In this document: positions 2,329 through 21,230 of the stretch, in pieces | Layout: each line of letters opens with the position of its first letter | How positions within the stretch are numbered: position 1 is the first letter of the stretch | Virus record (IMG/VR): IMGVR_UViG_3300029305_011823 | Length of the DNA stretch: 64,000 nucleotides | DNA from: a virus | Lineage: Duplodnaviria > Caudoviricetes | Reading direction: 5' to 3' (one strand) | The notes under the pieces: model-generated | What the model was told of the DNA's origin: nothing | Seen by the model: only the letters and a program-made list of their open reading frames with translations | Database searches by the model: none | Translations under genes and position numbers: made by a program

Positions 2329-2366
2329 CACTATTATAATATGGTATTGAAATTTCACGTTTTACA
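2329..2366 (-). promoter_or_regulatory. putative early (virion RNAP) promoter, representative of ~11 copies
   Basis: GTGTAA-N9-TTTCAATACCATATTATAATAGTG; near-identical motifs at ~6532, 14603, 17738, 20479, 28650, 30484, 34195, 34264, 44690 and a variant at ~5366, all intergenic and upstream of minus-strand genes. Confidence 0.7.
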
Positions 2367-2399
2367 CATCTGGAACATATAAATTAGAGCTATGAGGAT

Positions 2400-2957
2400 T
2401 TATTCCTCATAGCTCATCATGTTCAAACAGTTTAAAACTCTATCTAATATACTATCATAGTTATTTGTATTTACCACACCGTATGATTGTCTAGACATTA
2501 CTAATTCTTTTAAAGTTAAGTTATCTATTTCTTTAGATTGTTCTAAATCTTGTAATCTTCCTTCAGTTTTGTATTCGATTCCTTCTCTATTTAACATTAT
2601 GTTTAAATTATTAAATTTATTAAATGCTGTTCTAACTAATCTTTTTAAATCACTTCTAAATTCATCATCAGGTAAATATAATGAGGCATAAATATTAGTT
2701 AATAATATCGGTCTATCTGTAATAACTATATCAACTTTATCAATAACTCTAAATAATCTATGATGCTGTTTTGCGAAGATATATAATTCATCTTTCATGG
2801 TTTCTTGTCTTTGTTCATAAACTAAATCCTTAGCAAATTCAGAAACCATTTCAACATTATATCCTCTTGTTTTTAAATCAGCGAATAATCTAGCCATTGT
2901 AGTTGATTTACCACATCCTGGACCACCGAATAAATTTATAACTAATGCTTCTTTCAT
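2400..2957 (-). CDS. P-loop kinase/ATPase (AAA_28/NadR-like nucleotide kinase)
   Basis: INLFGGPGCGKST Walker A, EFAK, ITDRP motifs. Confidence 0.8.
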   Translation of the reverse strand: MKEALVINLFGGPGCGKSTTMARLFADLKTRGYNVEMVSEFAKDLVYEQRQETMKDELYIFAKQHHRLFRVIDKVDIVITDRPILLTNIYASLYLPDDEFRSDLKRLVRTAFNKFNNLNIMLNREGIEYKTEGRLQDLEQSKEIDNLTLKELVMSRQSYGVVNTNNYDSILDRVLNCLNMMSYEE

Positions 2958-2984
2958 AATTATTTACCTCCTTTAATTTTATGA

Positions 2985-2996
2985 TACATTATTGTT
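2985..2996 (-). promoter_or_regulatory. putative late (non-virion RNAP) promoter AACA-N6-TA, representative of ~22 copies
   Basis: AACAATAATGTA here; same spacing upstream of many genes on both strands (see findings); matches AR9 late promoter consensus. Confidence 0.75.
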
Positions 2997-3031
2997 ATAC
3001 CGTCTATAAAAAATGAACTATAGGATTTCTC

Positions 3032-5317: not shown

Positions 5318-5481
5318 ATACATTACCTCCCTAATAATTATAAATTTTTCCACAATTTTCACATTTGTAATATGATATGAATCTACATCTACCTTCTTCA
5401 TTAGAAATTTCTTCAATTTCTTCTAATTGACTTTCACATTCTTCACAACAAAGATAAACTGATTGATCCATATCTATCATA

Positions 5482-5835
5482 TTAAGCCTCCTCGATTTCT
5501 AATTCAAATACTGTAAATATATAATCATCTGGATCTGGATAAGTTATTGCTCCTAACGCTTCCCAATCTTTTGGATCTCCACAATAGCATCCTACTGGTC
5601 CTGCTAAACCTGTTAATTTCTTTCCTGGGAACATAGATTTTAATATATTAACAGCTCCTTCAAAAAGTTTGAAATCTCTAAGATGATAAGCAATTGATAA
5701 TACTCTAACATATACTTCATCGCCTTCTTCTATATAATCAACTGCACCAATTTCTTCACCATCTAATAATATGCTATATACTTCCCCAAGCCATTCATCG
5801 TAATATCTTTCTCCAAATTTTATATTCATACACAC
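5482..5835 (-). CDS. GNAT-fold acetyltransferase paralog (degenerate AcCoA motif)
   Basis: Aligns with the two neighbouring ORFs (IGAVDY, ITG, W..LGA, DDY..T.F). Confidence 0.55.
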   Translation of the reverse strand: MCMNIKFGERYYDEWLGEVYSILLDGEEIGAVDYIEEGDEVYVRVLSIAYHLRDFKLFEGAVNILKSMFPGKKLTGLAGPVGCYCGDPKDWEALGAITYPDPDDYIFTVFELEIEEA

Positions 5836-5841
5836 AACCTC

Positions 5842-6162
5842 CTAATAATTTTTTAATATAAATGGTGTTAATATTACATCATCATTATCAAATGCGTCAT
5901 AGAATTGTACATTCATTGATTTCCAAAACTCAATTGCTTCTGGTAATGCGTCACCAGTTATTGGTACATTTTCTTTCTTTAATTCATTAATAACTCTTGT
6001 AGCTATACCCATACGCCTATATTCTTTATGAATCTTTATATACTTTATCTCTATCTCATCTCCATAATCTATATATTCTAATACACCAACTACGTCGTCA
6101 TTCAAATAAATATAATACCTATCTTTAACTGTATTGGTTAATATTAGTTTAATCATATACAA
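5842..6162 (-). CDS. GNAT family N-acetyltransferase
   Basis: YRRMGIA AcCoA motif, AIEFWKSM. Confidence 0.8.
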   Translation of the reverse strand: MYMIKLILTNTVKDRYYIYLNDDVVGVLEYIDYGDEIEIKYIKIHKEYRRMGIATRVINELKKENVPITGDALPEAIEFWKSMNVQFYDAFDNDDVILTPFILKNY

Positions 6163-6166
6163 CCTC

Positions 6167-6502
6167 CTAGAATTCTATTATAAATGGTGTACAATAATCA
6201 TCATCTGGATCTTCATAAAATTCTGCTCCCATGCTTTCCCAAAACTTAATAGCACCTGGTAATGAATCACCAGTTATATACTTACCTTTATGATTTTCTT
6301 TAAATCTGTTTATAACTTTAGAAGCTAAACCTTTTCTTCTATATTCATCACCTATCTTAATATAACAAATATGAATTTTCTCACCTCTTATATAATAATC
6401 TATTATACCTACAGGTGTATCGTTATAAGTTATAACTCTAGTTCCTGGAGTTGCTACTCCAAATAATTTTATAGCATTATCATCATATATTATATCTATC
6501 AT
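6167..6502 (-). CDS. GNAT family N-acetyltransferase
   Basis: YRRKGLAS motif, AIKFWESMG. Confidence 0.8.
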   Translation of the reverse strand: MIDIIYDDNAIKLFGVATPGTRVITYNDTPVGIIDYYIRGEKIHICYIKIGDEYRRKGLASKVINRFKENHKGKYITGDSLPGAIKFWESMGAEFYEDPDDDYCTPFIIEF

Positions 6503-6599
6503 AACTCAACCTCCAAATTTATTTTATTCACAAATATAATATATAATTGAAATAATACCTTTTTACACTATAAAAAGACGGATGAAATTAATCATCCGT

Positions 6600-7895
6600 C
6601 TAGTCTTCATTCACAAGTTTCATTAATGCGTCATTATTTATCCCCTCGTTATTTTCCATCATTTCTTTTTCTTCATCTTTATTAACTCTTGATAATAAAG
6701 CTTCTAAATGTGGATATACCCATTTATCAAATGCCGCTCTAACTTCTTCTCTATTCCGATATTCATTTACTATATCCTTTTCATTAAATTTAACACTATC
6801 ATCATCCCCAAGATATCTAGCTGCTACCCTAGCTCCATTTATTAATCCTAAATCTCTTGCATACTCTAATAATGATCTTTCCATACTAAATCCATGATCT
6901 TGATCATATATCATTGGAACTTTTGCTCCAGATATATTTGTTCTAGATTTTATTATCTCTGCATTTATTCTAAATCCTGAATATCCATCTTCTTCTACCG
7001 TACATTTAGAACTTCCCACTGCAACATGTTTTATTAATGTGTTAGCAAAATATATTGGAGCATTTCCTCCAGGCAAACTTTCATCTTGCTTTAGATATAA
7101 AACTTGTGCTTGTGATTTTGCAAATGGATTTATTTCTATCTTTTGATTTATATGGTTAATACTTATTATAGTTATATTAAACTCTTTTATTATAGGTATT
7201 AATCTACTAAAGAATTGCTTTAATGCTCTTGCAACCCTCATTGCATATGTTTGACCTTCTATTTCTTGGTCTTCAACATAATAATCTTCTTGACCTGAAC
7301 CTTTCTTAGCTTTAACTTTCTTTTGATCTGGTCTTGTAGCCAATACCGGTATCGAATCTATTATAAAGACAGTTGGTTCATATAATGTTATTGGTTGACC
7401 AAACTCATCTTTAAAATCAGTTGTATACTGATAAAGTTTTTTATTCTTTTGCTTTTCATTTGCTATATCCATAATCGTATCAAATATATCTTCAATATAT
7501 GAACGTGAAGATTTTAATACATAATGGTCCATATATTCTGCATTTGTTAATCCTGTTACATTCATAACCCTTGTTGGGTTTAATGCTTGTTCTAAATCAT
7601 AATGTAAAACGAAACTTGATTTATGATTTTTAACTATTTCAGCTCCCATTTTACATGCTATCGCTGTTTTAGCAGTTCCTGATTTTCCTATGATAGTTAT
7701 AAAACTACCACCAACTAAACCAAGACAATCATGTGTCCCAGTTACTGCTCCATTACTATCTTTAGATACTAATGTATATCCTAATTGATAATCTAATGTT
7801 GGTATCCCTGTTGGATAACATACCATTGCTGGTGATGCATTAAATAAACCTTCTTTATCATTCTCTCTTAACGCACTTAATAAAGGATTTGCCAT
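6600..7895 (-). CDS. RecA/UvsX-like recombinase
   Basis: TGIPTLD, GKSGTAKT Walker A, DLEQA, IIDS Walker B, INH, PGGNAPIYFA, IKSR. Confidence 0.85.
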   Translation of the reverse strand: MANPLLSALRENDKEGLFNASPAMVCYPTGIPTLDYQLGYTLVSKDSNGAVTGTHDCLGLVGGSFITIIGKSGTAKTAIACKMGAEIVKNHKSSFVLHYDLEQALNPTRVMNVTGLTNAEYMDHYVLKSSRSYIEDIFDTIMDIANEKQKNKKLYQYTTDFKDEFGQPITLYEPTVFIIDSIPVLATRPDQKKVKAKKGSGQEDYYVEDQEIEGQTYAMRVARALKQFFSRLIPIIKEFNITIISINHINQKIEINPFAKSQAQVLYLKQDESLPGGNAPIYFANTLIKHVAVGSSKCTVEEDGYSGFRINAEIIKSRTNISGAKVPMIYDQDHGFSMERSLLEYARDLGLINGARVAARYLGDDDSVKFNEKDIVNEYRNREEVRAAFDKWVYPHLEALLSRVNKDEEKEMMENNEGINNDALMKLVNED

Positions 7896-7987
7896 AATTA
7901 ATTACCTCCTTATATTTTTTATTATAAATATAATTAGTTGTTATTAAACAAATAAAAAGTTAATAAGGATTATATCCTTATTAACAA

Positions 7988-8164
7988 TTATACTAATAAT
8001 AAATAAAATACAACGTAAAATGTTATTATTATAAATGAAATTATAGTTGTTGCTATTTTTTTATCTTGAATACTTTTAATGAATGCATAAACTGTTAATC
8101 CAGCACCTATAATATATAATATTACAAATATAATTAATAATATTAAAATATTTACAGGAATCAT
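7988..8164 (-). CDS. small 2-TM membrane protein (58 aa)
   Basis: Manual ORF MIPVNIL...; GGAGG RBS, overlaps stop of upstream gene. Confidence 0.6.
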   Translation of the reverse strand: MIPVNILILLIIFVILYIIGAGLTVYAFIKSIQDKKIATTIISFIIITFYVVFYLLLV

Positions 8165-8898
8165 TTAGATACCTCCTTTGTAGTTATAATAGGTTCATAT
8201 TTACTATTTACTCTTCCAACAACCCAATGTTGAAATATAGTTACTATAATATAACCTAATACAACTGCTAAATAACAAAACTGAATTGGAATATTTATAC
8301 CTAAATTTATTAAATGTAATGGCATTCTAGTTGTCGATGTATAATTTGTGCCGAATATAAAATTAATTATTGTATTAATCGTTAACAAAATAGTTGTTAT
8401 TATACAACACATTTTTACATCCTCTCTAGTTGAACCAATCTTTTTGACAAACAGATAGTTGCCTGATATTAACATAATATATACGTGTAATAATACAGTT
8501 GTTATTTGTAATATATGCGGGAAAGGATATTTAAATATTGTAGGGAATATTAACCCTGCTATACCCCCATAAAATCCCCAATAACTACCTAATTTTAGAC
8601 AAAACTTATTATTACAAAATATGCCTATTGTAAATAAATACAACACTATTCTACATGTATACAGAGGTAATCCTTTTAGAAACAAACTCTCAGGTCCTAT
8701 TATATACCAACCATATAATATAATTTGTAATCCTAATATAAATAAAGTTGATATTTTTTCAATAAAAATATTTTGTTTTTGATATTTAACCATCCAATTT
8801 AAAAAGGTAAAACTTCCGACCAATAAACATATGTGCCATAATCCTAATAAATGTAGACCGCTTTCGGATTGAATTGTAGCAAACATAACTCTCATCAT
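8161..8898 (-). CDS. YwaF/TMEM164-like integral membrane protein
   Basis: Multiple TM segments, LPLYTC, FPHI...LH, NY motifs. Confidence 0.7.
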   Translation of the reverse strand: MMRVMFATIQSESGLHLLGLWHICLLVGSFTFLNWMVKYQKQNIFIEKISTLFILGLQIILYGWYIIGPESLFLKGLPLYTCRIVLYLFTIGIFCNNKFCLKLGSYWGFYGGIAGLIFPTIFKYPFPHILQITTVLLHVYIMLISGNYLFVKKIGSTREDVKMCCIITTILLTINTIINFIFGTNYTSTTRMPLHLINLGINIPIQFCYLAVVLGYIIVTIFQHWVVGRVNSKYEPIITTKEVSK

Positions 8899-8951
8899 AA
8901 ATATTACCTCCCTTATTTTTTATATTTATTTGTTATATTATTTATTATTTT

Positions 8952-9371
8952 CTATCTATCTCTTACTGTGCAGAATATATAAACTCTCATAACTTCTAAT
9001 AAAGCTAATTTATCATTTATATATCTTATCAATTCATAATCATCATTATCATCACACATTTTAGTTGCATCGTGTATCATTATAACTACAGGATCATAAT
9101 AAATACCTTTAGAATAGAAATCGTGATATATAACATAAAGTTGTTCCTCTAATTCTTCTAGTGTATAATCATTATATTCTGAATAAGATGTATAATTTAT
9201 AGGATAAGTTAAATCATCTATTGTTATTTTACTATAACTACCTGTAAGGTTAATATAGGTTAATATTATACCATCTTCATTCTCAAGTCCTATATCGTAG
9301 GCTTTATTGAATAATTCTACTAAAACAGTACCTTCATCATCTTCGCAAAAGTATGAAATTGTAGCATTCAT
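8952..9371 (-). CDS. hypothetical protein
   Basis: ORF with GGAGG RBS. Confidence 0.6.
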   Translation of the reverse strand: MNATISYFCEDDEGTVLVELFNKAYDIGLENEDGIILTYINLTGSYSKITIDDLTYPINYTSYSEYNDYTLEELEEQLYVIYHDFYSKGIYYDPVVIMIHDATKMCDDNDDYELIRYINDKLALLEVMRVYIFCTVRDR

Positions 9372-9431
9372 TAGTAAATTAATACCTCCTATGAATTAAA
9401 AATGTATAAGGAAGTTTCCTTCCTTATACAA

Positions 9432-9653
9432 TTAATATCTCCAAACTATTCTTCCTGTTGTTAAATCATAAACAGAAATTTCAAAATCTACCTTATCATT
9501 TTCAACTATAGCTATTTTATTTTGTCTTAGTTTACCTGATAAAGAACAAGTTGCTGTAACTTCAACTTCATCAGCTTTCACTATAAATTTTGCTCCTGGT
9601 AAGCATTTTATAACCGTACCTTTTAATTTCATTATATCTTTACTTTTTGCCAT
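9432..9653 (-). CDS. infA: translation initiation factor IF-1
   Basis: MAKSKDIMKLKGTV..LPGAKF..SGKLRQNKI..D.V..E.S.YDLT.GRIVWR. Confidence 0.93.
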   Translation of the reverse strand: MAKSKDIMKLKGTVIKCLPGAKFIVKADEVEVTATCSLSGKLRQNKIAIVENDKVDFEISVYDLTTGRIVWRY

Positions 9654-9669
9654 TCTCTAACTCCTTTTT

Positions 9670-12066
9670 TTATTTAAACCATATTTCGTCCCCATACTGC
9701 TTGATAGTCCTATCAGTTGTAAATGGGAAACTGTTTGCTATATTTATTAAACATTTTTTGTTCCATTCTCTTCTGTTATTTTTGTATAAACTATTCATTT
9801 CATATGTTTTATCAAGATATTCTTGTAAATCTGTTAATGTGAAGAAATGGTCATTTGACATTAATTCCCAATATAATTCTTCACCAGCTCTATCAATTTG
9901 TTTTAACATTTCCATTGCTTTTTCTATCTTGTTGTTTGTTTTAACTATATGTCTTCCACTTAAATCTGTCCATGTAGCATATCTATTTAAAACTTCATCT
10001 TTACGTAAACCGAATAAGAATATATTTTCTTCTCCTACATATTCAGTTATCTCAACATTAGCACCATCTAATGTACCTAATGTTAAAGCACCATTCATCA
10101 TGAATTTCATATTTGATGTTCCAGATGCTTCTTTAGATGCAGTTGGTATTTGTTCAGATATATCTGTAGCAGGTATTATTAATTCTGCTTTAGAAACATT
10201 GTAATCTTCTATAAATACAAGTTTCATTTTTCCATTTACTCGTTCGTCATTATTTATAACTTTTGCTAATTTATTAAATACTTTTATAACATTCTTAGCT
10301 GATCTATAACTAGCTGCCGCTTTACCAGCCATTATAAATGTCATAGGATAAAATTCTTTTTCTGGATTTTCTAATAAATCGTTGTATATCATCATTATTC
10401 TTAATACGTTCATTATTTGTCTTTTATACATATGAATACGTTTTATCTGAACGTCGAATATACTATTAGGATCTAAATCCAATCCTGTCTCTCTTATAAA
10501 TCTTTGTTTATTAAGCATTTTAATATCATTTATTGTCCATAATATTGCACCTGTATCATGGAATTGTTCTAATTCTTTCATTTGTTTAAGATCCTGTTTC
10601 CAACCTTCTCCTAATATTGTAGTTATGAATCTAGTTAAATCAGGATTTGCTAATAATAACCATCTTCTATGTGCTATACCATTTGTTTTGTTATTAAATG
10701 CTTGTGGTTTATCCATATAGAAATCTTTAAGAGTTTCTTCTTCTAATATTTCTGTGTGTAATGCAGCAACTCCGTTTATACTATAGCTACACATACAATC
10801 CATATTAGCCATACGTACGTTTCCGTAGTTATCTATTATTTTCATTCTATCTATTTTAGATGTATTATATCCTTTTACTTTTCTTAAATACTCTACATAT
10901 CTTCTGTCTATTTCTTGTATTATCATATATATTCTTGGAATTAAAGATTGTAACATATACCCACTCCATACTTCAAGAGCTTCTTGCATTATTGTGTGGT
11001 TTGTATAACTACAAACTTTAGTTGTTACATTCCAAGCTTCATCCCATCCTAATCCTTCTTCATCCATTAACACCCTCATTAATTCAGGTATAACTAAAGA
11101 TGGATGTGTATCATTTATATGAACTGCAAGATGTTTATCTAGTTCTCTTAAATTCACTCCACGTTTTTTGAATTTATTAACTAAAGATTGTATACCTGCA
11201 GAACATAGGAAATATTCTTGTTTTAATCTTAATTCTTTACCTTCATGTGTAGAATCATCTGGATAAAGATTCTCACATATTTGATTTATTAATGTCCTTC
11301 TTCTTTGCATGTTATTATCATGACAATAGTTTATTCCACATTCATCAAGAATATTATAAGAAGGCATATCAGCTTCCCAAGTTCTTAAATAGTTCACTGT
11401 ATTATTTTCATAACCAGGAACTGGTATATCATATGCTCTTGCTACTATTGGTTCATAGTTTTCAAGAATTGGAACTAAATCATTTCCATTAGTTTCAAAT
11501 CTAACCGAACCTCTAAGTTTGATTATATATTCTTCACCTGATTTTGAATCCCAAGCATAATAACCATTCTTAAGCCATCTATCAGGTAACTCAACTTGCT
11601 CATCATTAAATATTTCTTGTTTGAACAACCCATGTCTATATCTTATAGTTTGACCATAACCTGCATATTCTAAACACGCCATTGAATCTATGAAACAAGC
11701 AGCTAATCTACCTAATCCTCCGTTTGCTATAGCTGGTTCTGGTTCTACTTCAACTAATTCATTTAAATCCCAATCAAGGTCATCCATAACTTCATTCACT
11801 ACATCTTCTAATCCTCTATTTAAAATTATTGATTTAAGTTGTTTTCCTAATAAGAACTCTATTGAAAAATAATGTACCTCTTTCTTCCCTTCAAGATTTT
11901 GATTACATCTTTTCCAATCTTCTGACATTGTATCTTTTAAAGAATTTGCTAAAACGTCAAATCTTTCAAATACATTTAATTGATCTACATTCTTTTGAAA
12001 TATTTTAGTTGCGTTTTTTTCAATTAACTTTTTAAAATTATCAACTCTATCAAATTCTTTTATCAT
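9670..12066 (-). CDS. glgP: glycogen/maltodextrin phosphorylase
   Basis: NGGLGRLAACF, LYPDDS, LRLKQEY, HINDTHP, NKTNGI, QIKRIHMYKRQ, PLP-site EASGTSNMKF, GTLDGANVE. Confidence 0.96.
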   Translation of the reverse strand: MIKEFDRVDNFKKLIEKNATKIFQKNVDQLNVFERFDVLANSLKDTMSEDWKRCNQNLEGKKEVHYFSIEFLLGKQLKSIILNRGLEDVVNEVMDDLDWDLNELVEVEPEPAIANGGLGRLAACFIDSMACLEYAGYGQTIRYRHGLFKQEIFNDEQVELPDRWLKNGYYAWDSKSGEEYIIKLRGSVRFETNGNDLVPILENYEPIVARAYDIPVPGYENNTVNYLRTWEADMPSYNILDECGINYCHDNNMQRRRTLINQICENLYPDDSTHEGKELRLKQEYFLCSAGIQSLVNKFKKRGVNLRELDKHLAVHINDTHPSLVIPELMRVLMDEEGLGWDEAWNVTTKVCSYTNHTIMQEALEVWSGYMLQSLIPRIYMIIQEIDRRYVEYLRKVKGYNTSKIDRMKIIDNYGNVRMANMDCMCSYSINGVAALHTEILEEETLKDFYMDKPQAFNNKTNGIAHRRWLLLANPDLTRFITTILGEGWKQDLKQMKELEQFHDTGAILWTINDIKMLNKQRFIRETGLDLDPNSIFDVQIKRIHMYKRQIMNVLRIMMIYNDLLENPEKEFYPMTFIMAGKAAASYRSAKNVIKVFNKLAKVINNDERVNGKMKLVFIEDYNVSKAELIIPATDISEQIPTASKEASGTSNMKFMMNGALTLGTLDGANVEITEYVGEENIFLFGLRKDEVLNRYATWTDLSGRHIVKTNNKIEKAMEMLKQIDRAGEELYWELMSNDHFFTLTDLQEYLDKTYEMNSLYKNNRREWNKKCLINIANSFPFTTDRTIKQYGDEIWFK

Positions 12067-12265
12067 ATTAATTATTCTCCTTTTCCTATTCCATAATTTT
12101 ATTAATTCATTGTATATACCCATATAAATTTTAACAAAAAAGGAAGCTTCGAAACTTCCTTTTTATTCTCATTATTAATGTTTCCTTACGGTTCATTGAT
12201 GTAACTGAACCATTTGCTATTAAATATTTTGTAAGTTTTGTCATCTGTTTTTTCTCCTCACATGA

Positions 12266-12796
12266 TTATTTTAATACATCTTTTATCCAACTAGGACATG
12301 TTGTTTTAGCACCTGATCTTCTCCAAGCTTTCCACAACTCTTCACGTTTCTTTGTTTCCTCATCTACAACTGTATATGTTATTTTAACATTAGTTGTATT
12401 CGGGTCTCTCCAAATTTCTAAGAATTCATTAACAGCTTCAGCTTCAGATACTTCTCCTTCTAATGGTGTATTCTTTTCTAAATCGTAAACCATAGTTCTA
12501 GCATTATTACTTAATTCATCATTTCGTCTTGCTAAATCTAATATCACTGATATATGAATGAAATCTTGTTCATCTGGATAAACGTCACCATATTGATCCG
12601 TGAAACTAACAGTTATTGTATCTTTATATTCATCTTTTATATCATTCCATATTATTGAATACGTATGCATTCGGTACCCAAAATAATTTCCAATATCTTT
12701 ATATTTCACCCATATACCGTCATTATAAGCAACATAACCAATTTCAACTTCTTTACCATACTTCATTAATTTGTAAAATTTTAATTCACTATTCAT
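12266..12796 (-). CDS. BRO-N-like DNA-binding protein
   Basis: IWVKYKDIGNYFGY...FIHISVILDL pattern resembles Bro-N. Confidence 0.5.
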   Translation of the reverse strand: MNSELKFYKLMKYGKEVEIGYVAYNDGIWVKYKDIGNYFGYRMHTYSIIWNDIKDEYKDTITVSFTDQYGDVYPDEQDFIHISVILDLARRNDELSNNARTMVYDLEKNTPLEGEVSEAEAVNEFLEIWRDPNTTNVKITYTVVDEETKKREELWKAWRRSGAKTTCPSWIKDVLK

Positions 12797-12825
12797 AATA
12801 TCATTCTCCTTTATTTTTATAATTT

Positions 12826-13181
12826 TTATTGTTAACATGATTAAGTCTAATAATGTTGTATATACTTATTATATCCTAATTACTCGAGCTTGGCTGGTAC
12901 TCATACCATTCACACCTTTTCAGGTTAACCCCTCTCTTTCTCTCAGGATTAATGTCTTCAGCATAGATTTTAAAATCCTTAGCTTACTATAACATTAGAA
13001 TATCCATTCACCTAATTACTCGAGCTTGGCTGGTACTCATACCATTCACACCTTTTCAGGTTAACCCCTCTCTTTCTCTCAGGTTCATACTTTTGGCATA
13101 GTCTTAGACCTTAGCCTACGGTATTAGAATATTCAGTTTTGTATTTTTAATTATTATTAAACTTAATCATGTTAACAATAA
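12826..13181 (-). ncRNA. unknown structured RNA: two tandem domains inside a 29-bp terminal inverted repeat
   Basis: IR 12826-12854 / 13153-13181 (one G-U on minus strand); identical 73-nt direct repeat; covarying hairpins; late promoter at 13179-13190. Confidence 0.7.
12875..13083. repeat. perfect 73-bp direct repeat, 2 copies (12875-12947, 13011-13083), period 136
   Basis: cctaattactcgagcttggctggtactcataccattcacaccttttcaggttaacccctctctttctctcagg read twice. Confidence 0.95.
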
Positions 13182-13205
13182 TTACTTGTTATATTAAATA
13201 TAGTT

Positions 13206-13237
13206 AATCAATAAGGATAAATTTATCCTTATTGATT
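13206..13237 (-). terminator. intrinsic terminator-like hairpin
   Basis: aatcaataaggata-aatt-tatccttattgatt after the 13251 gene stop. Confidence 0.6.
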
Positions 13238-13250
13238 ATTTGATTCATCA

Positions 13251-14165
13251 TTAGAATAAATGTTTAAATTTTTCGTTATTGATTTTAAATTTGTTCATTT
13301 TAGCATATGCTAATTTTATATTTTCAGGAACTTTCATATCTTTATTATTTACAACTGCTTCTAATAATTTATAATTAAGATATTTATCTATTAACGTTTC
13401 TTTTCTTCCTGTTCTTTCATTAAATCTTACTATTGAATTACAAGCTGCGTGTAATGCTTTTTCAAATTTTTCTTCAGATAATGCACCACAAGTTTTATAT
13501 AAGAATGATTGTATTCTTGTTGCATATGGTTTATGTTTTTCATCTATATTCTTATCTATTCCTGCTTTACAACATGCTGTTACAAATTCTTCTGGTTGTA
13601 AATCTGGAATTGCTTGTGTTAATATTGCTCCTAAAACATTTTCACTTATAGCACTTATTGAATATTTACCATTATATGCTTTAAATAATATCTCTGGTAA
13701 ATTTTCTAAAATGTTTTCAACTTCTTTAGATCTAAAGAATGGAGTTACTTCATATCCCCTAACTGTTTTAACTGAAGACATTAATATTACTATATCAGTT
13801 TCTTTATGTCCTGTTATATTCATTCCTAATTCTATTTCTCTTAATTGATATCCTAACATATAAGCTTCATTTGCTAATTCTTTATCTTCTATATGATGTG
13901 TTGCTGTATATAATACAAATGCCATATTAAAGTTAATTCTTGAATCTCCTGAATTTATTAAATATGAAATTGTATTCATAAATCTTTTTCCTCTAATGAT
14001 TTCACACACTTCATTAAATTCTTTCTTAGCTTTATAATTATACATGTTATTTACAAAATAATCTATTATCACTTCTTGATAATCTATTACAGCTGCTTCT
14101 AATTCTTGCATTGTTAAATCATAACTCATTTCATTTACAAATCCTTTTATATTTAGTTCTCTCAT
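13251..14165 (-). CDS. hypothetical protein (304 aa, helical)
   Basis: ORF with AGGAGG RBS. Confidence 0.7.
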   Translation of the reverse strand: MRELNIKGFVNEMSYDLTMQELEAAVIDYQEVIIDYFVNNMYNYKAKKEFNEVCEIIRGKRFMNTISYLINSGDSRINFNMAFVLYTATHHIEDKELANEAYMLGYQLREIELGMNITGHKETDIVILMSSVKTVRGYEVTPFFRSKEVENILENLPEILFKAYNGKYSISAISENVLGAILTQAIPDLQPEEFVTACCKAGIDKNIDEKHKPYATRIQSFLYKTCGALSEEKFEKALHAACNSIVRFNERTGRKETLIDKYLNYKLLEAVVNNKDMKVPENIKLAYAKMNKFKINNEKFKHLF

Positions 14166-14216
14166 ATACTTACCTCCTAAAATTTTTATAATTTATTTTT
14201 TGGAACATATAAATTA

Positions 14217-14567
14217 CTAATCTAAGTTATCCCATTCTTTAAATTGTGCTTTTAAGCTCTCAACATGTGTTTGCTTCCATTCATCTCTAACTTCTGGTAT
14301 CCTTTTAACAAATTCATCTTTTATTACAGACTCTTCTGCCCAAGATATAATTTTCTTACAAAAATCATTCACATATAATTCTCCTAATTCATCTAAGGCT
14401 TCTTCTTTTTCTTTATCACTCATTGAATTATGAGTTAAGCAATACATTGTTATTGCTCTACTATATTCATTTCCTTTCATTGCTTCAACAGCTGCTAAAT
14501 CTATCGCTTCACTAAGACTAAACTCTTTATTTCTTTTTTTCATTATATCTTCTCTTTTTATAGCCAT
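14217..14567 (-). CDS. hypothetical early protein
   Basis: ORF, RBS, early promoter at ~14603-14639. Confidence 0.65.
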   Translation of the reverse strand: MAIKREDIMKKRNKEFSLSEAIDLAAVEAMKGNEYSRAITMYCLTHNSMSDKEKEEALDELGELYVNDFCKKIISWAEESVIKDEFVKRIPEVRDEWKQTHVESLKAQFKEWDNLD

Positions 14568-14676
14568 GGTATCTACCTCCAAATATTTTTATTTTACTTC
14601 ATCTATATAATATAGCATTGAAATAGCACCTTTTTACAGTAATAAAATAAGTTATGGTGACTTAAATCACCATAAC

Positions 14677-14865
14677 TTATTCTTTATTTTTATCATGATT
14701 TTTCTTTATTACTAAATATAGTTCTTTCAATTTAAGGAATATTGCTGCACAAGCTACAGCAGATAATAAACCTTTCATAACCACGTCTTGTATAACGATT
14801 AATCCTGTGACTAATAACATACCTATTATAAGCACATCGCAAACTAAATTGAAAGTTCCTTTCAT
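14677..14865 (-). CDS. small 2-TM membrane protein
   Basis: Hydrophobic ORF with basic tail. Confidence 0.55.
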   Translation of the reverse strand: MKGTFNLVCDVLIIGMLLVTGLIVIQDVVMKGLLSAVACAAIFLKLKELYLVIKKNHDKNKE

Positions 14866-14867
14866 CT

Positions 14868-15074
14868 CTACTCACCCTTATGTCTTATTTTGTAATGCCC
14901 ATATATTCCTAATCCAGCTAATCCTATTAAACCTAATAGGAATCCGATTGCTGCCCAAATTCTAGCGTCAAAATTCATTCCATGTTCAACATTTAATTTC
15001 TCTGCCCATCTAAATCCTATGAATCCAAATAATATCCAAGCTATTAATTGTATTAACATTTCCATTTTTTTCAC
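14868..15074 (-). CDS. small membrane protein, paralog of 52020-52232
   Basis: WAAIGFLLGLIGL vs WSAVIGFIFGASGL. Confidence 0.55.
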   Translation of the reverse strand: MKKMEMLIQLIAWILFGFIGFRWAEKLNVEHGMNFDARIWAAIGFLLGLIGLAGLGIYGHYKIRHKGE

Positions 15075-15113
15075 GCTCCTTTTCTAAATAATTGTATATC
15101 GTATTATAAAAAA

Positions 15114-15782
15114 TTATTCTGATATATAAAATACAATCAATCTACCATTCTTAACACTATAATCACATGTATATAATCCAACTATATGACTATTCTCATC
15201 ATATTCAACACCATTAATAAAATAATCACTATTTTGTTTTATCAATGCCACAGCATCAGATGTTTCCATATTGTCAATTTGTTTATAAAAGAAATTGTTA
15301 TTTGTAACATAATAAGCAAACGGCTTGAATGTTTTTGTATTTTCTGCCGTTTCTATAGTCAATACAGACTCTTTAAATCTTTGATGGTCTTTTTGAAAAT
15401 AATGTAAGTTATTAAACATTGTTCCATTTTTCATACTATGTCCGTACAACATTGTATACTTACCATCAAAAGGTTCATCACTAGAGCAATAGAATATAGC
15501 TCCACTATTGCTTTCATTCCCTTGATAATCGTGATTGATATAAAAAATATTATCTGTATATGTCATAACAGGATAGTCTATAGCAGTTCCTTCTACTGTT
15601 ATCCAATCATATCCATGCTCTTTTAAATACTTACTAGTATCATTTGATCGTGTTTTTTCGTTTTGTACTTCTTCATAAGTTTTCTTAGCTTTATAATATT
15701 CCCATTGCTTTTGACCAATTTCCCATGAACTTATAGATAATACTGCAATTAATATTACATTTATAACATTCTTTAATTTCAT
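15114..15782 (-). CDS. srtB: class B sortase
   Basis: N-terminal TM anchor, WI.VEGT.IDYPV, FYINHD...SGAIF, catalytic YGH, LYTC and R (GRLIV). Confidence 0.9.
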   Translation of the reverse strand: MKLKNVINVILIAVLSISSWEIGQKQWEYYKAKKTYEEVQNEKTRSNDTSKYLKEHGYDWITVEGTAIDYPVMTYTDNIFYINHDYQGNESNSGAIFYCSSDEPFDGKYTMLYGHSMKNGTMFNNLHYFQKDHQRFKESVLTIETAENTKTFKPFAYYVTNNNFFYKQIDNMETSDAVALIKQNSDYFINGVEYDENSHIVGLYTCDYSVKNGRLIVFYISE

Positions 15783-15845
15783 AAATTATACCTCCTATAC
15801 TAAAATAAAAAATAGAGTGGAGAATCTTTCTCCACTCTATTTTAC

Positions 15846-16439
15846 TTATTCTTCATCTTTCTTTTTATTAACTACAAATAATCCTATACTTGCTGCTGCT
15901 ACTGTTATTGCTCCAACCATCATACCAGCATCTCCTGTATTTGGATCATGTATTTCTGGTTCTTCTTCTACTGGTGGATCGACTGGTTCGTCATCTTTAA
16001 AATCAGGCACACCGTTTCCATCTTCATCTTGTGGATATTTATAATCTATTCCTATTTTTACAGTTTTTACATCTGATGCTCCAAGAGGATCGTCAAGATC
16101 GTCAAGATCTACACTATTACGTATCAATCCAGACCCATTATTTTCTACATTTATTTTTTCCATTGGTACATTAACTTCAGATCCATCTTTTAATATTAAT
16201 TTAACGTATGTTATATTATAATTTTCAACCCATGCTGCTTTTATATCTGCTAATAAAATATTAGATGGTCCATCTAGTTCTAAAAAAACATTGTTATCTT
16301 GGAATATGAACACTTCATCTAATTTTATATTTTCAACAATTAACGCATCATTAACATGTACATCGTCTGCAAATACATTTCCGCTCATTCCAAATACTAA
16401 TAAACCTGCTACTAATAAACTTTTAACTTTTTTGTTCAT
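15846..16439 (-). CDS. secreted cell-wall-anchored protein, putative sortase substrate
   Basis: Signal peptide (..NVFA), acidic Pro-rich stalk, sorting signal DPNTG + hydrophobic helix + KKK tail. Confidence 0.8.
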   Translation of the reverse strand: MNKKVKSLLVAGLLVFGMSGNVFADDVHVNDALIVENIKLDEVFIFQDNNVFLELDGPSNILLADIKAAWVENYNITYVKLILKDGSEVNVPMEKINVENNGSGLIRNSVDLDDLDDPLGASDVKTVKIGIDYKYPQDEDGNGVPDFKDDEPVDPPVEEEPEIHDPNTGDAGMMVGAITVAAASIGLFVVNKKKDEE

Positions 16440-16524
16440 ATAAAATCTCTCCTTTTTAATTTATATTTTTTATTTAGTTTTCTCGATGCTTTTCTATTAA
16501 TATTTTGTTATTTGTTATATAAAA

Positions 16525-17004
16525 TTATATAAACTCGTAATTATTATTTATTATTTCTTCTATTTCAATCATTAGTTCATTCATTCTATCTAATACTAAA
16601 GTTATTTCTTCTTCTATTTCAGCTTTTTCTTGTTCGTTTGCAGCTATTGTATATTTTAATCCTAATTCCATTAATTCGTCTAAGCAATTATCTAATTCTA
16701 TAGTTAGTTTTTGTGTTGGTTTGATTCTATTTTTTGTCATATAATCAAATAAATTAATCGCATCGTTCATTGTTAAATCTTCGTCTTCTGTTATTGTAAA
16801 TAACACATTATCTATCAATCTCATTATTGCAAAATATTCTTGTTCTAAAACAACAACATCAATTTCTTGTTGAATATTTTCTTTTGTTGGTTCAGGTTCA
16901 TTATTTTGACATCCTGTCAACCCTAAACAACATAAAGTTAAGATAAGGGCTAAACCTATAATTGCTATATTTTTTATCAATTTTCCAATTATAATCTTTT
17001 TCAT
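16525..17004 (-). CDS. putative lipoprotein
   Basis: MKK + hydrophobic stretch + lipobox LTGC. Confidence 0.65.
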   Translation of the reverse strand: MKKIIIGKLIKNIAIIGLALILTLCCLGLTGCQNNEPEPTKENIQQEIDVVVLEQEYFAIMRLIDNVLFTITEDEDLTMNDAINLFDYMTKNRIKPTQKLTIELDNCLDELMELGLKYTIAANEQEKAEIEEEITLVLDRMNELMIEIEEIINNNYEFI

Positions 17005-17054
17005 TTATATCATTCCCCTTTCTATTCTAAATATTTGTTATATATGTTATAAAA

Positions 17055-17082
17055 AAATAAGATACCTTGAGGTATCTTATTT
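17055..17082 (-). terminator. terminator hairpin of AGATAC...GTATCT family
   Basis: aaataagatacc-ttga-ggtatcttattt overlapping stop codon; similar at ~17782, 20523, 22164, 30539. Confidence 0.65.
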
Positions 17083-17703
17083 CCATTCCATTCCATACAT
17101 GTCTTCGTATATTTTGTTGAATTCTTCTTCATTCATTATTATTTTTCTTGACTCATTTAACATGTCTTCTGCATATTTTGTATTGAATCTAGCATATCCT
17201 TTTTCTCCATATTTGTCTTGTAAATGACTTATTACTTCTTCATATATTTCTTTGTTGTTTTTATCTGGATAATGTTTTCTGTTCCATTTATATGTTCTTT
17301 CTATCATTGTGTATATATCATTCATTCTGTCTGCGTCTGAAACTATCTTGCTATATATACTTGTGTATTCTCCTTTGTAACTTGCTCTATGCTCTTCTAC
17401 TGCTTTTGCTATTATTTCAATTTGCTCTTCGTTAAAGTATTCTTTTAACTCTTCTTCTCTTCTTACGATTTCACCTGATTTTAGGTGATGTGTTTCTCTG
17501 TCATATTTTAATCCTAGGTCGTGCATTGCTGCTATTGTTTTTACCATGTTTATGTTTAACTCAACATGTTCATCTTTCATCATGTTTTTTGCAATGTATT
17601 CTGAATTTTGTATTACCATTCTTGCATGATCTTTGTTGTGTGCTGGATCGAAACTTTCATATCTTTCTATTATACTTTCTAAATATTGATTTAATTTTTT
17701 CAT
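17077..17703 (-). CDS. HD-domain phosphohydrolase
   Basis: H...H, AAMHDLG, HH, EH, DAD motifs. Confidence 0.85.
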   Translation of the reverse strand: MKKLNQYLESIIERYESFDPAHNKDHARMVIQNSEYIAKNMMKDEHVELNINMVKTIAAMHDLGLKYDRETHHLKSGEIVRREEELKEYFNEEQIEIIAKAVEEHRASYKGEYTSIYSKIVSDADRMNDIYTMIERTYKWNRKHYPDKNNKEIYEEVISHLQDKYGEKGYARFNTKYAEDMLNESRKIIMNEEEFNKIYEDMYGMEWK

Positions 17704-17802: not shown

Positions 17803-18522
17803 TTATTCATCTAAAGTTTTTGGTAAGAAATAGTCGTTCATTACTAAGTCTGTCATTAATCCTGCACCTATAAAGAATACTGCTGCAGAATTTAATGTTG
17901 TTTTATTTGATAATTTATCTGTTAATTCATTCATTGCAACATAACCATCTCTTGCTATCTTTTTATTCATTTCAGCTTTCATAACCATATCATCAGCTCT
18001 CATAGACATAAGTTCTTTTAATGAAACATTTGCACCTACTGTAAGTAACGCTATAGTTTCTTGGTCAGAGTTTCTTGAGTTTTTATCATGACCTGCAACC
18101 TGACCAGTTATCATATTTCTTTCACTTATATCCGTAGATATACCTATCTTCTTGAAGTTAAGTTGTTGTAAACGTTTTATATTTAAATATCCAACTAGAC
18201 ATTCATGTTTAGTTATTATTGGATTATTTGGATCTTGACTTGCATAAGGTAAAACAACTTTTTCAAATAATGGTACATCTAAAAATTTTGCAGCCTTTTC
18301 TATATTTTCTATTTTTAATGGATTTTCGTAATCAACCATAGTTGCTGTTAAATATGGGTCATCTTGTTCAAATAGCAATTTAAAGTATTGATCGAATTCA
18401 GCATCTGACATACTTTTAAACTTATTTCTATAATATTCAGTGTTTCTTCCAGATGGGTCAAATAAATCAAAGAATCCATATATTAAATCTTCCATCTCTT
18501 TTCTTTTAGCTTTATTCATCAT
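17803..18522 (-). CDS. RNA polymerase beta extreme C-terminal subunit (virion RNAP, phiKZ gp149-like)
   Basis: VGYLNIKRLQQ...ITGQV...SDQETIALLTVGA..LKELMSMRADD parallels beta region I (GYMYMLKL...TQQP...EMEVWAL...LQEMLTVKSDD). Confidence 0.8.
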   Translation of the reverse strand: MMNKAKRKEMEDLIYGFFDLFDPSGRNTEYYRNKFKSMSDAEFDQYFKLLFEQDDPYLTATMVDYENPLKIENIEKAAKFLDVPLFEKVVLPYASQDPNNPIITKHECLVGYLNIKRLQQLNFKKIGISTDISERNMITGQVAGHDKNSRNSDQETIALLTVGANVSLKELMSMRADDMVMKAEMNKKIARDGYVAMNELTDKLSNKTTLNSAAVFFIGAGLMTDLVMNDYFLPKTLDE

Positions 18523-20546: not shown

Positions 20547-21230
20547 CTACATAACTTTACAAAATGCAAATTTTACTATCTTTCCAGATTCTGAATCATA
20601 CCATACCCAACCACCATCGCTTATTAGATAAACCTTTTCCCTGTGAAACAATTTAAATCTTCTAGCAGATTCTAAAATTTTATTTCTCTGCTCAATATCC
20701 CAAGGATTGTAATGTGGTAAGATTACAAAATCTTTTATAAATCTTATTCCCCTAAAGCACTTATATCCAGCATAATCATTATCAGGATATACGAAAAATC
20801 TTCTACTCCAAAACATAGATCCAGCCGATTCCCCTACAACTATTTTACATTGTTTTATCATGTTGGTTAATTTAAGTTCTTTTAATATTTTTACTATATT
20901 TTCTGGAAATCCTCCTGGTAGATAAACTATCGTATTATCTGCAAGAAGTTTATGTTTTATTAATCCTATAGAATCTGTAAATCTATTAATAACTACAACC
21001 CTATCAGGATTTATACCTATATTAACAAAAGGTTCTATAGTTTTCCAAAATATAGATTCCTTATTAAATGGATTTCTGTCAAAACGTTTATAAATATCTT
21101 CAGCACACCTTAAATACTCAAAATGATTTGCAAATGGAAGAACCACTAATTGAGTTTGACTATTTATATTCTCCTTTAAATAATCTATGGATTCAACTCC
21201 ACTTGAAACGCTTGTTAAAAATAATTGCAT
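20547..21230 (-). CDS. peptidase S51 / PepE-like (class I GATase fold)
   Basis: LFLTS, YLPGG, GESAG nucleophile elbow, LPHY. Confidence 0.8.
   Translation of the reverse strand: MQLFLTSVSSGVESIDYLKENINSQTQLVVLPFANHFEYLRCAEDIYKRFDRNPFNKESIFWKTIEPFVNIGINPDRVVVINRFTDSIGLIKHKLLADNTIVYLPGGFPENIVKILKELKLTNMIKQCKIVVGESAGSMFWSRRFFVYPDNDYAGYKCFRGIRFIKDFVILPHYNPWDIEQRNKILESARRFKLFHREKVYLISDGGWVWYDSESGKIVKFAFCKVM

What the first reader, a model, noticed from the sequence alone, without database searches (positions are those of the whole stretch)
14677..17039. Phage-encoded sortase system: SrtB with an adjacent sorting-signal substrate, lipoprotein and small membrane proteins
Seen: late promoter (16498-16509), then a secreted protein with signal peptide, acidic Pro-rich stalk and DPNTG + TM + KKK (15846-16439), a hairpin, and a class B sortase with intact His/Cys/Arg (15114-15782), then two small membrane proteins. 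A lipoprotein with its own late promoter lies upstream. Known: class B sortases anchor adjacent-encoded substrates to peptidoglycan via NPQTN or (S/P)PxTG-type motifs. Inference: the phage covalently decorates the infected cell wall with its own protein using its own transpeptidase. Possible roles are superinfection exclusion, receptor masking, lysis timing or adhesion. I know of no described sortase-substrate pair in a lytic jumbo phage.
Basis: partly seen in the sequence, partly recalled or inferred. Interest (0 to 1): 0.85.

Follow-up and report, generated by a model that had tools for sequence, protein, structure and literature searches.

The report
Jumbo-phage sortase B with its substrate
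An uncultured giant phage of Gram-positive gut-type bacteria carries its own cell-wall "stapling" enzyme (a class B sortase) next to the one secreted protein built to be stapled, so it probably displays a swappable protein of its own on the infected cell; a preprint of October 2026 first reported this kind of module, and it is still untested.

Summary
On the minus strand lie a lipoprotein gene (16525-17004), a secreted protein ending in DPNTGD, a membrane helix and KKKDEE (15846-16439), a strong hairpin, a class B sortase with His115/Cys206/Arg214 (15114-15782) and two small membrane proteins.

The record is a 128-kb fragment of an AR9/PBS1-related jumbo phage; the identical substrate sits on contigs up to 324 kb.

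The sortase-substrate pair recurs in every related phage lineage examined. The phage sortases form one long-stemmed clade, at most 34% identical to any bacterial sortase found. This rules out a recent host fragment or a chimera.

The lipoprotein and small membrane proteins are lineage-specific neighbours, not conserved parts.

New here:
- Lipoprotein and substrate genes have AR9-type nvRNAP promoters (AACA-N6-TA, about 4.7-fold enriched upstream of genes).
- The sortase has none and lies behind a conserved hairpin.
- The Ig-like passenger domain is exchanged as a cassette between a conserved signal peptide and sorting signal, at a recombination hot-spot.

The novelty claim is outdated: bioRxiv 10.64898/2026.10.24.761521 reports 24 such SrtB-substrate modules in gut huge phages. 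This scan also noted class E/F sortases in actinophages on other DNA.

Biological role and enzyme activity remain untested.

The parts
17053..17084 (-). Terminator-like hairpin closing the upstream HD-domain gene. It isolates the lipoprotein/substrate unit from upstream transcription.
   Evidence: -14.7 kcal/mol, z -5.84, followed by U7
17028..17039 (-). AR9-type nvRNAP ('late') promoter motif AACAAATATTTA in front of the lipoprotein gene. It is embedded in the extended motif TATAACAAATA (17032-17042).
   Evidence: The orthologous site is conserved in L002.
16525..17004 (-). 159-aa lipoprotein (lipobox LTG|C) with an acidic helical mature part. It is a lineage-specific neighbour and not a conserved part of the module.
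   Evidence: Found only in the identical phage and in L002 (47% identity); absent in L066, L003 and L061.
16498..16509 (-). AR9-type nvRNAP promoter motif AACAAAATATTA, 58 nt upstream of the substrate start codon. It is preceded by TATAACAAATA (16509-16519).
   Evidence: AACAAAATA is also present upstream of the L002 substrate.
15846..16439 (-). Sortase substrate, 197 aa: signal peptide 1-24, Ig-like beta-sandwich passenger about 30-135, acidic Pro-rich stalk 136-164 with invariant Lys148, sorting motif DPNTGD 165-170, hydrophobic segment 171-190, tail NKKKDEE.
15809..15843 (-). 16-bp hairpin plus U-run between substrate and sortase genes. It is the presumed attenuator or terminator that sets substrate expression above enzyme expression.
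   Evidence: The same position holds a hairpin with a different stem sequence in L002 and L003.
15114..15782 (-). Class B sortase, 222 aa, with an N-terminal membrane anchor and catalytic His115, Cys206 and Arg214. It has no promoter motif of its own.
14868..15074 (-). 68-aa (65 aa from the internal ATG) small membrane protein, co-transcribed with the sortase. It is found only in this phage type.
14677..14865 (-). 62-aa small membrane protein. It is conserved only in L002 (65% identity).
14646..14681 (-). Terminator-like hairpin closing the sortase transcription unit.
   Evidence: -22.3 kcal/mol, z -8.53

Best explanation
This is a two-gene surface-display module of an AR9-related, uncultured jumbo phage of a low-GC Bacillota host.

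Proposed mechanism:
1. During infection the phage's own non-virion RNA polymerase transcribes the substrate gene from an AACA-N6-TA promoter.
2. A conserved hairpin lets only part of this transcription run on into the sortase gene, so much substrate and little enzyme are made.
3. The substrate is exported by Sec through a highly conserved signal peptide and is held in the membrane by its C-terminal hydrophobic segment and KKK tail.
4. The membrane-anchored phage sortase (Cys206) cuts it between Thr168 and Gly169 of DPNTGD.
5. The sortase transfers it to the peptidoglycan precursor, as in Clostridioides difficile SrtB, where the link is Thr to meso-diaminopimelate.
6. The result is an Ig-like domain on an acidic proline-rich stalk fixed covalently to the wall of the infected cell.

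The display domain is a cassette. It is exchanged between phage lineages while the signal peptide, stalk base, sorting signal and sortase stay together.

Shown: gene content, class B fold and triad, motif, conservation, promoter motif enrichment, hairpin, cassette exchange.

Inferred: expression, cleavage, anchoring, and the purpose. The most likely purpose is changing the surface of the infected cell against competing phages (receptor masking or superinfection exclusion), at roughly 30-40%. Adhesion or aggregation is the next option.
For: Sortase:
- Pfam score is above the cut-off and srtB gives E 9.4e-38.
- All 15 PDB sequence hits are SrtB.
- The AF2 model has pLDDT 87.6 and pTM 0.83. Its top 19 fold hits are all class B (C. 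perfringens and C. difficile, TM 0.79-0.80), followed by a gap to classes C and A.
- His115 and Cys206 are invariant and Arg214 is at least 90% conserved in 20 homologs.

Substrate:
- It is the only sorting-signal protein in 128 kb.
- T-G-D is invariant and D-P at least 90% conserved in 40 homologs.
- 77 of 79 homolog clusters carry the signal, mostly DPETGD or DPNTGD.

Pairing: a substrate lies directly upstream of the sortase in L002, L003-5, L060, L061, L062, L063 and L066. The sortases there are 51-77% identical to this one.

Phage origin:
- Split multisubunit RNAP genes are closest to AR9/PBS1 (36%) and Staphylococcus S6-type phages.
- The identical locus was seen on at least 24 contigs from several samples, up to 323,618 bp.
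- 19 phage sortases form one clade (SH-aLRT 100, stem 1.08) separate from bacterial SrtB, which are at most 34% identical.

Motif type: the nearest bacterial SrtB loci carry NPPTGD, SPKTGE, VPGTGD and GPKTGD substrates. C. difficile SrtB uses (S/P)PxTG and links Thr to mDAP (PMC5270738).

Expression signals: promoter enrichment is 42 sense, 12 antisense and 9.0 in shuffles. There is no motif before the sortase. Hairpins occur in three lineages, and the genes overlap by 11 nt in L060 and L062.

Cassette exchange:
- Window vs L002: sortase 75%, signal peptide 92%, sorting signal 73%, passenger 25%.
- Window vs L063: sortase 61%, passenger 72%.
- L060 vs L062: sortase 73%, passenger 20%.
- L066 has flanks 81-98% identical to the window, but its sortase is only 77% identical and its passenger is a different type.
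Against: - There is no expression, cleavage or anchoring data.
- The sortase scores below the NCBIfam equivalog cut-off (129.8 against 153.75).
- Asp at the first motif position has not been tested for any sortase.
- The passenger fold is a generic Ig/FnIII-like sandwich (best Z 6.5, Foldseek E 0.012), so it gives no functional clue.
- The host is unknown.
- If the hairpin terminates fully, the sortase would lack a promoter.
- In one relative (L006) the substrate gene is frameshifted.
Confidence: 0.75

Rival explanations
1. Pilus-like polymerisation. The class B sortase joins substrate monomers head to tail, Thr168 of one to the invariant stalk lysine of the next. This would build a covalent fibre on the infected cell rather than single anchored molecules.
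For: - Pilus-assembling class B sortases are among the top fold matches (Spy0129 3psq, E 1.1e-15; S. pneumoniae PI-2 4y4q).
- Lys148 is invariant in 40 homologs.
- A K[GD]D[ET]P-like motif lies a median of 19 residues before the sorting motif in 66 of 77 proteins, across all passenger types.
- The passenger is Ig-like.
Against: - The nearest sequence and fold relatives are the anchoring-type clostridial SrtBs.
- There is only one substrate gene and no accessory pilin or SipA-like gene in 128 kb.
- No YPKN-type pilin motif is seen on reading the sequence.
- No significant match to pilin or CnaB domains was found.
- The conserved Lys-Pro motif may simply be a hinge or a recombination flank.
Confidence: 0.08
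2. The phage sortase mainly serves host proteins. It replaces or boosts the host's sortase after host shut-off, or re-sorts host xPxTG proteins. The neighbouring protein would then be only one of many substrates.
For: Bacterial relatives use very similar xPxTG(D/E) signals, so cross-recognition of host substrates is chemically plausible.
Against: - The sortase is always paired with its own substrate.
- The signal peptide and sorting signal co-vary with the sortase.
- Asp at motif position 1 is found in 70 of 77 phage substrates, but in none of the bacterial neighbours seen. This suggests a private enzyme-substrate pair.
Confidence: 0.08
3. Lysis or wall-integrity role. Massive anchoring of the substrate, together with the lipoprotein and small membrane proteins, consumes lipid II or alters the wall to time lysis or stop cell division.
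For: - The sortase is co-transcribed with two small membrane proteins, and a lipoprotein lies directly upstream.
- The genes carry late-type promoters.
Against: - The small membrane proteins and the lipoprotein are absent from close and distant relatives that keep the pair.
- No endolysin or holin family hit was found in the cluster.
- Rapid passenger exchange fits an outward-facing interaction better than a housekeeping lysis role.
Confidence: 0.05
4. Artefact: a recent, unexpressed host fragment or an assembly chimera.
For: IMG/VR labels the record 'provirus', and CheckV estimates 58% completeness.
Against: - The same gene order appears on at least 24 contigs from several samples.
- GC stays at 26-29% across the region.
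- Phage promoter motifs precede the genes.
- The phage clade is monophyletic and long-stemmed, at most 34% identical to bacterial sortases.
- Synteny with the RNAP beta gene holds in several lineages.
- No integrase or resolvase was found.
Confidence: 0.02

Closest known systems
SrtB-substrate modules of gut huge phages (Yuan & Chen, bioRxiv 10.64898/2026.10.24.761521, Oct 2026)
   Same: Both have a class B sortase with His/Cys/Arg and a substrate gene immediately upstream. The substrate carries a signal peptide, a variable region and a PXTG sorting signal. Substrates there are 175-1,047 aa, and the nearest bacterial sortases are from Bacillota. Both propose surface display, with receptor masking as one possible role.
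   Different: I could not check whether this phage is among their 24. Not described there, and found here:
- AR9-type promoters on the substrate but not on the sortase;
- the conserved inter-gene hairpin;
- the full DPxTGD consensus and the invariant stalk Lys;
- exchange of the passenger independent of the sortase;
- the locus as a recombination hot-spot;
- roughly 85 sortase and 79 substrate clusters in metagenomes.
This short substrate has one orphan Ig-like domain, not the SHIRT/FctA domains they describe.
Clostridioides difficile SrtB (CD2718) and its (S/P)PxTG substrates such as CD2831
   Same: The fold is class B (4ux7 TM 0.79; 5gyj, 6kyc). The motif has Pro at position 2 and Thr-Gly at positions 4-5. 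The expected link is Thr to mDAP. A proline-rich stalk lies next to the anchor.
   Different: Sequence identity is only 27-30%. Motif position 1 is Asp rather than Ser or Pro. The genes are carried by a virus and read from viral promoters. No PPEP-1-like releasing protease was found, but that search was inconclusive.
Staphylococcus aureus SrtB-IsdC (NPQTN) and TIGR03064 equivalogs
   Same: The enzyme class is the same, and the substrate is encoded next to the enzyme.
   Different: The sortase scores 129.8 bits, below the equivalog cut-off of 153.75, and is about 20% identical in fold alignments. The motif is not NPQTN. There is no convincing NEAT domain (Z 5.1, within background) and no iron-uptake genes.
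Phage superinfection-exclusion surface proteins, for example the Ltp lipoprotein of Streptococcus thermophilus phage TP-J34 (from my own knowledge, not checked here)
   Same: A phage-encoded, Sec-exported envelope protein that could block incoming phages. A lipoprotein gene lies directly upstream here.
   Different: Those proteins are held by a lipid anchor or a membrane helix, not fixed covalently to peptidoglycan by a phage-encoded enzyme. No sequence relation was found.

Membership tests
Sortase superfamily (Pfam PF04203) | Domain match above the gathering cut-off | tested here: met
   38 bits against 26.6, residues 61-218. 38.3 bits in the genome search.
Class B sortase | Catalytic His-Cys-Arg triad in the conserved YGH, TC and GR contexts | tested here: met
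   His115, Cys206 and Arg214 align with Listeria and B. anthracis SrtB. His and Cys are invariant and Arg is at least 90% conserved in 20 homologs.
Class B sortase | Nearest solved relatives by sequence and by fold are class B, clearly ahead of classes A, C and D | tested here: met
   All 15 phmmer hits are SrtB. Foldseek ranks 1-19 are class B (E 1e-17 to 6e-12, TM by target 0.60-0.80); class C and A follow at E 7e-9 or weaker and TM by query at most 0.47.
Class B sortase | Extra helical segment between the last strands (beta6/beta7 region) and an N-terminal helix, as in solved SrtB structures (feature recalled from my own knowledge) | tested here: met
   The predicted model has helices 165-171 and 174-184 between strands 149-160 and 200-207, and helix 49-56 before the barrel. 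This rests on a prediction only.
Class B sortase, NCBIfam TIGR03064 equivalog | Score at or above the curated equivalog cut-off | tested here: not met
   129.8 bits against 153.75. It is a diverged class B enzyme, not an equivalog of the Isd-type SrtB.
Class B sortase | Transpeptidase activity on the cognate motif | not testable with these tools
   Needs a peptide cleavage and transfer assay.
Cell-wall sorting signal (PF00746 / TIGR01167) | Pentapeptide with T-G, then a hydrophobic stretch, then a basic tail at the C-terminus, plus an N-terminal signal peptide | tested here: met
   DPNTG, then a 20-residue hydrophobic stretch, then NKKKDEE. PF00746 scores 20.7 against 20. TIGR01167 scores 15.8 against 15.9, just under. 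The signal is conserved in 77 of 79 homolog clusters.
Clostridial SrtB substrates, (S/P)PxTG | Ser or Pro at motif position 1 | tested here: not met
   Asp in 70 of 77, Glu in 3, Thr in 4. Positions 2, 4 and 5 (P, T, G) do fit.
Huge-phage SrtB-substrate module (bioRxiv 10.64898/2026.10.24.761521) | SrtB gene with a substrate directly upstream that carries a signal peptide and a PXTG sorting signal, in a phage genome over 200 kb | tested here: met
   Gene order. The identical substrate lies on a 323,618-bp contig, and relatives lie on 216-330 kb contigs. An animal-gut habitat was not tested.
AR9-type nvRNAP (late) promoter | AACA-(6N)-TA/G shortly upstream of the gene, and the motif enriched at gene starts in the genome | tested here: met
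   Motifs at 16498-16509 and 17028-17039. 42 sense, 12 antisense and 9.0 +/- 3.1 in shuffles; leaders mostly 20-50 nt.
AR9-type nvRNAP (late) promoter | Mapped transcription start and late or continuous kinetics | not testable with these tools
Sortase-assembled pilus | Pilin-type domains with a pilin-motif lysine, usually several pilin genes | tested here: inconclusive
   An invariant Lys148 exists. However, there is one substrate gene only and no significant pilin or CnaB fold match.

The most novel reading that the evidence does not exclude
The phage sortase does not merely anchor its partner but polymerises it through the invariant stalk lysine (K[GD]D[ET]P, about 19 residues before DPxTGD). 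This would make a phage-encoded covalent fibre, a 'viral pilus', on the infected cell, with an interchangeable Ig-like tip domain.
Probability: 0.08. Interest if true: 0.8.

Novelty: new member of a known kind. Interest (0 to 1): 0.45.

Why it matters
Sortase-mediated wall anchoring was regarded as a cellular trait. A virus that brings both the enzyme and its private substrate can rewrite the surface of a Gram-positive cell from within, independently of host transcription.

The details added here make the idea testable:
- a defined DPxTGD signal for peptide assays;
- a compact 222-aa enzyme with a confident model;
- a promoter and attenuator architecture that predicts a substrate-to-enzyme ratio;
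- a passenger cassette that is swapped between otherwise near-identical phages.

That last pattern is typical of loci under arms-race selection, such as superinfection exclusion or receptor masking.

An orthogonal sortase and tag pair with Asp at position 1 could also be useful for protein ligation or surface display.

The discovery itself belongs to the October 2026 preprint. This locus is a well-dissected example of it.

Tried and rejected
- blastn of the locus against 50,697 phage records gave no match.
- PHROGs has no family for the sortase, the substrate or the small membrane proteins.
- tblastn of the sortase against deposited phages gave only hits of at most 34% identity, in unannotated Listeria, Streptococcus and fecal records. 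I did not follow these up.
- Passenger fold searches found no specific family. Foldseek against PDB gave a best E of 0.012. The ESM Atlas gave TM below 0.5. VIA-align wide gave a best Z of 6.5, within the tool's stated background. NEAT domains appear only at Z 5.1.
- An exhaustive HMMER search with the passenger found only its own cluster plus weak multi-repeat matches. The best, P0166, is a Bacteroidota T9SS adhesin with 15 identical repeats at 25 bits each. I rejected this as homology.
- The stretch D-E-D-G-N-G-V-P-D-F-K-D-D looks like a thrombospondin-type-3 calcium loop by eye, but no Pfam hit supports it.
- A PPEP-1-like (M34) protease search in the record found nothing, and the control genomes did not ring either, so it is inconclusive.
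- Integrase and resolvase searches were negative in the 128-kb fragment.
- The atlas search for the lipoprotein gave only scores below 0.9, to small Bacillota lipoproteins of unknown function.
- Host assignment was not achieved. The best bacterial sortase hits (Paraclostridium, 33-34%) are too distant to name a host.
- I did not run complex prediction, because the tool advises against enzyme-substrate pairs.
Full report
WHAT IS THERE

On the minus strand of window 14646-17084 lie, in order of transcription:
- a hairpin closing the upstream HD-domain gene;
- an AACA-N6-TA motif (17028-17039);
- a 159-aa lipoprotein gene (16525-17004, lipobox LTGC);
- a second AACA-N6-TA motif (16498-16509);
- a 197-aa secreted protein (15846-16439);
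- a 16-bp hairpin with a U-run (15809-15843; -21.2 kcal/mol, z -5.35);
- a 222-aa sortase (15114-15782);
- two small membrane proteins (68 and 62 aa);
- a closing hairpin (14646-14681).

All five genes have Shine-Dalgarno sites.

THE GENOME

The window is part of a 128,249-bp IMG/VR record. Its features are:
- GC is 26-29% throughout the window, apart from one 2-kb bin at 34.5% far from the locus (54001-56000).
- It carries split multisubunit RNA polymerase beta genes, topoisomerase II, UvsX, helicases and tail-fibre genes.
- Its RNAP beta piece is closest to Bacillus phages AR9/PBS1 (36%) and to Staphylococcus S6-type jumbo phages (32%).
- No integrase or resolvase is present in the fragment.
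- The identical substrate protein occurs on at least 24 contigs from several samples, the longest 323,618 bp. Related phages give contigs of 216-330 kb.

So this is an uncultured, AR9-related jumbo phage. The 'provirus' label is probably a pipeline artefact.

THE ENZYME

Sequence evidence:
- Pfam Sortase scores above the cut-off.
- NCBIfam srtB gives E 9.4e-38, though below the equivalog cut-off (129.8 against 153.75).
- All 15 PDB sequence hits are class B sortases. His115, Cys206 and Arg214 align to their catalytic residues.
- His and Cys are invariant, and Arg nearly so, in 20 homologs.

Structural evidence: an AlphaFold2 model (pLDDT 87.6, pTM 0.83) has class B sortases as its top 19 structural matches. 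C. perfringens and C. difficile SrtB are best (TM 0.79-0.80). Other classes follow after a clear gap.

THE SUBSTRATE

- It has a signal peptide (1-24), an all-beta domain (30-135, pLDDT 80-90), an acidic Pro-rich stalk, DPNTGD, a 20-residue hydrophobic segment and NKKKDEE.
- It is the only sorting-signal protein in the whole 128-kb record.
- Across 79 homolog clusters, 77 keep the signal. DPETGD occurs 51 times and DPNTGD 12 times. Asp precedes Pro in 70 and follows Gly in 73.
- A Lys-Pro motif (K[GD]D[ET]P) sits a median of 19 residues upstream in 66 of them, and Lys148 is invariant in the 40-sequence alignment.
- The passenger is a generic Ig/FnIII-like sandwich with no convincing relative by fold or by exhaustive HMMER.

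IS THE PAIRING REAL AND VIRAL?

Yes.
- A substrate gene lies directly upstream of the sortase in every related locus with readable DNA: L002, L003-5, L060-L063 and L066. In L006 it is present but frameshifted.
- About 85 sortase clusters at 49-96% identity exist in metagenomes.
- The best sortases among 185,579 bacterial and archaeal species genomes are at most 34% identical, with Paraclostridium first.
- In a maximum-likelihood tree, the 19 phage-type sequences form one clade (SH-aLRT 100) on a stem of 1.08 substitutions per site.
- Synteny with the RNAP beta piece is kept in several lineages.

This excludes a recent host fragment and an assembly chimera.

WHICH KIND OF SORTASE SIGNAL?

The nearest bacterial SrtB loci carry neighbours ending in NPPTGD, SPKTGE, VPGTGD and GPKTGD. 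C. difficile SrtB recognises (S/P)PxTG and links Thr to mDAP (PMC5270738). The phage motif belongs to this clostridial xPxTG(D/E) type. It has a private Asp at position 1, which may make the pair orthogonal to the host's.

EXPRESSION SIGNALS

- AR9 late (nvRNAP) promoters read AACA-(6N)-TA/G (PMC5312081).
- In this genome the pattern occurs 42 times in sense orientation in upstream intergenic DNA, against 12 antisense and 9.0 +/- 3.1 in shuffles. Leaders are mostly 20-50 nt, and the motif lies in front of 40 genes.
- The lipoprotein and substrate genes each have one. The sortase has none.
- An extended form, TATAACAAATA, occurs 6 times in the record. Four of these are intergenic and 38-80 nt upstream of a start. 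They precede the lipoprotein, the substrate, a TMEM164-family membrane protein (8161-8898) and a 118-aa gene outside the window. The lipoprotein site is conserved in L002.
- The hairpin between substrate and sortase is present in three lineages with different stem sequences (-19.9 to -21.2 kcal/mol). In two other lineages the genes overlap by 11 nt.

I infer co-transcription, with attenuation giving more substrate than enzyme. No RNA data could be obtained.

WHAT BELONGS TO THE MODULE?

Only the pair.
- L066/L067 share flanking genes with the window at 98% (RNAP piece), 89% and 81% identity. Yet they lack the HD gene, the lipoprotein and both small membrane proteins. Their sortase is only 77% identical, and their passenger is of a different type.
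- The lipoprotein recurs only in L002 (47%), the 62-aa protein only in L002 (65%), and the 68-aa protein nowhere else.

So the region is a recombination hot-spot in otherwise similar genomes.

CASSETTE EXCHANGE

Identities by region:
- Window vs L002: sortase 75%, signal peptide 92%, sorting signal 73%, passenger 25%.
- Window vs L063: sortase 61%, passenger 72%.
- L061 vs L062: sortase 47%, passenger 66%.
- L060 vs L062: sortase 73%, passenger 20%.

The signal peptide stays 83-92% identical even where the sortases are about 50% identical. Synonymous differences occur in 3-7 of the identical codons, which speaks for selection on the peptide. This pattern is what one expects of an outward-facing protein under diversifying pressure. 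It is my main reason to favour a role in phage-phage competition, or in interaction with the environment of the cell. That role is an inference.

COMPARISON WITH THE LITERATURE

A preprint of 24 October 2026 (bioRxiv 10.64898/2026.10.24.761521) reports the following:
- 24 SrtB genes in 24 gut huge phages;
- each with an upstream substrate carrying a signal peptide and a PXTG sorting signal (175-1,047 aa);
- conserved His/Cys/Arg;
- nearest relatives in Bacillota;
- a proposal of surface display, with possible receptor masking.

It states that sortases had not been documented in viruses before, and I found no earlier paper. The present locus is therefore a member of a kind that has just been described, purely computationally.

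Earlier notes of this scan also record class E and class F sortases with substrates in actinophages on other DNA. I did not check those.

VERDICT

The accessory genes are not part of the system, and the novelty claim is outdated.

The added value lies in the promoter and attenuator architecture, the full DPxTGD plus Lys-hinge consensus, the monophyly and depth of the phage sortase clade, and the cassette exchange at a hot-spot.

Noticed in passing
window 8161-8898 (-): A 245-aa multi-pass membrane protein of the TMEM164 family (PF14808, E 3.7e-20). It is preceded by the same extended promoter string TATAACAAATA (8927-8937) as the lipoprotein and substrate genes. This may mark a small co-regulated set of envelope genes.
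   Followed up: partly
window 9670-12123 (-): An 817-aa glycogen/starch phosphorylase (PF00343, 878 bits), an auxiliary metabolic gene in the phage. It is also present in relative L066.
   Followed up: partly
window 20547-21230 (-); L006 6687-7295; L062 2447-3133; L066 290-976: A Peptidase_S51 (dipeptidase E / cyanophycinase-like) gene recurs in these phages. In L006 it lies directly downstream of the sortase.
   Followed up: no
L006 5302-5990: In this relative the substrate gene is frameshifted after about 84 codons. The rest, including DPATGD, the hydrophobic stretch and KKDEE, continues in another frame. This is either a pseudogene or an assembly error.
   Followed up: partly
L002 2260-4029: The RNAP beta piece orthologous to window 17803-18522 is split into two ORFs by an insertion of about 290 nt. 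An HNH-endonuclease-like ORF lies directly upstream, which suggests an intron or a homing element.
   Followed up: no
window 56959-63999 (+), continuing beyond the window (G000 1884-14429): A giant ORF of about 4,180 codons preceded by an AACA-N6-TA motif. A collagen-like tail-fibre gene lies at 55144-56208.
   Followed up: no
whole record G000: AACA-N6-T[AG] precedes 40 of the 90 genes that have at least 25 nt of intergenic upstream DNA. This extends the AR9-type nvRNAP promoter to an uncultured phage only about 36% identical to AR9 in RNAP beta.
   Followed up: yes
proteins P0128 and P0133 (substrate homologs): Two substrate homologs read DPETYD instead of DPETGD. The Gly at the cleavage site is lost, so they are possibly non-cleavable variants.
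   Followed up: no
window 15960-15990 (-), substrate residues about 150-160: The stalk reads VDPPVEE next to the anchor. It resembles by eye the Pro-Pro sites at which C. difficile PPEP-1 releases sortase substrates. No such protease was found in the incomplete record.
   Followed up: partly
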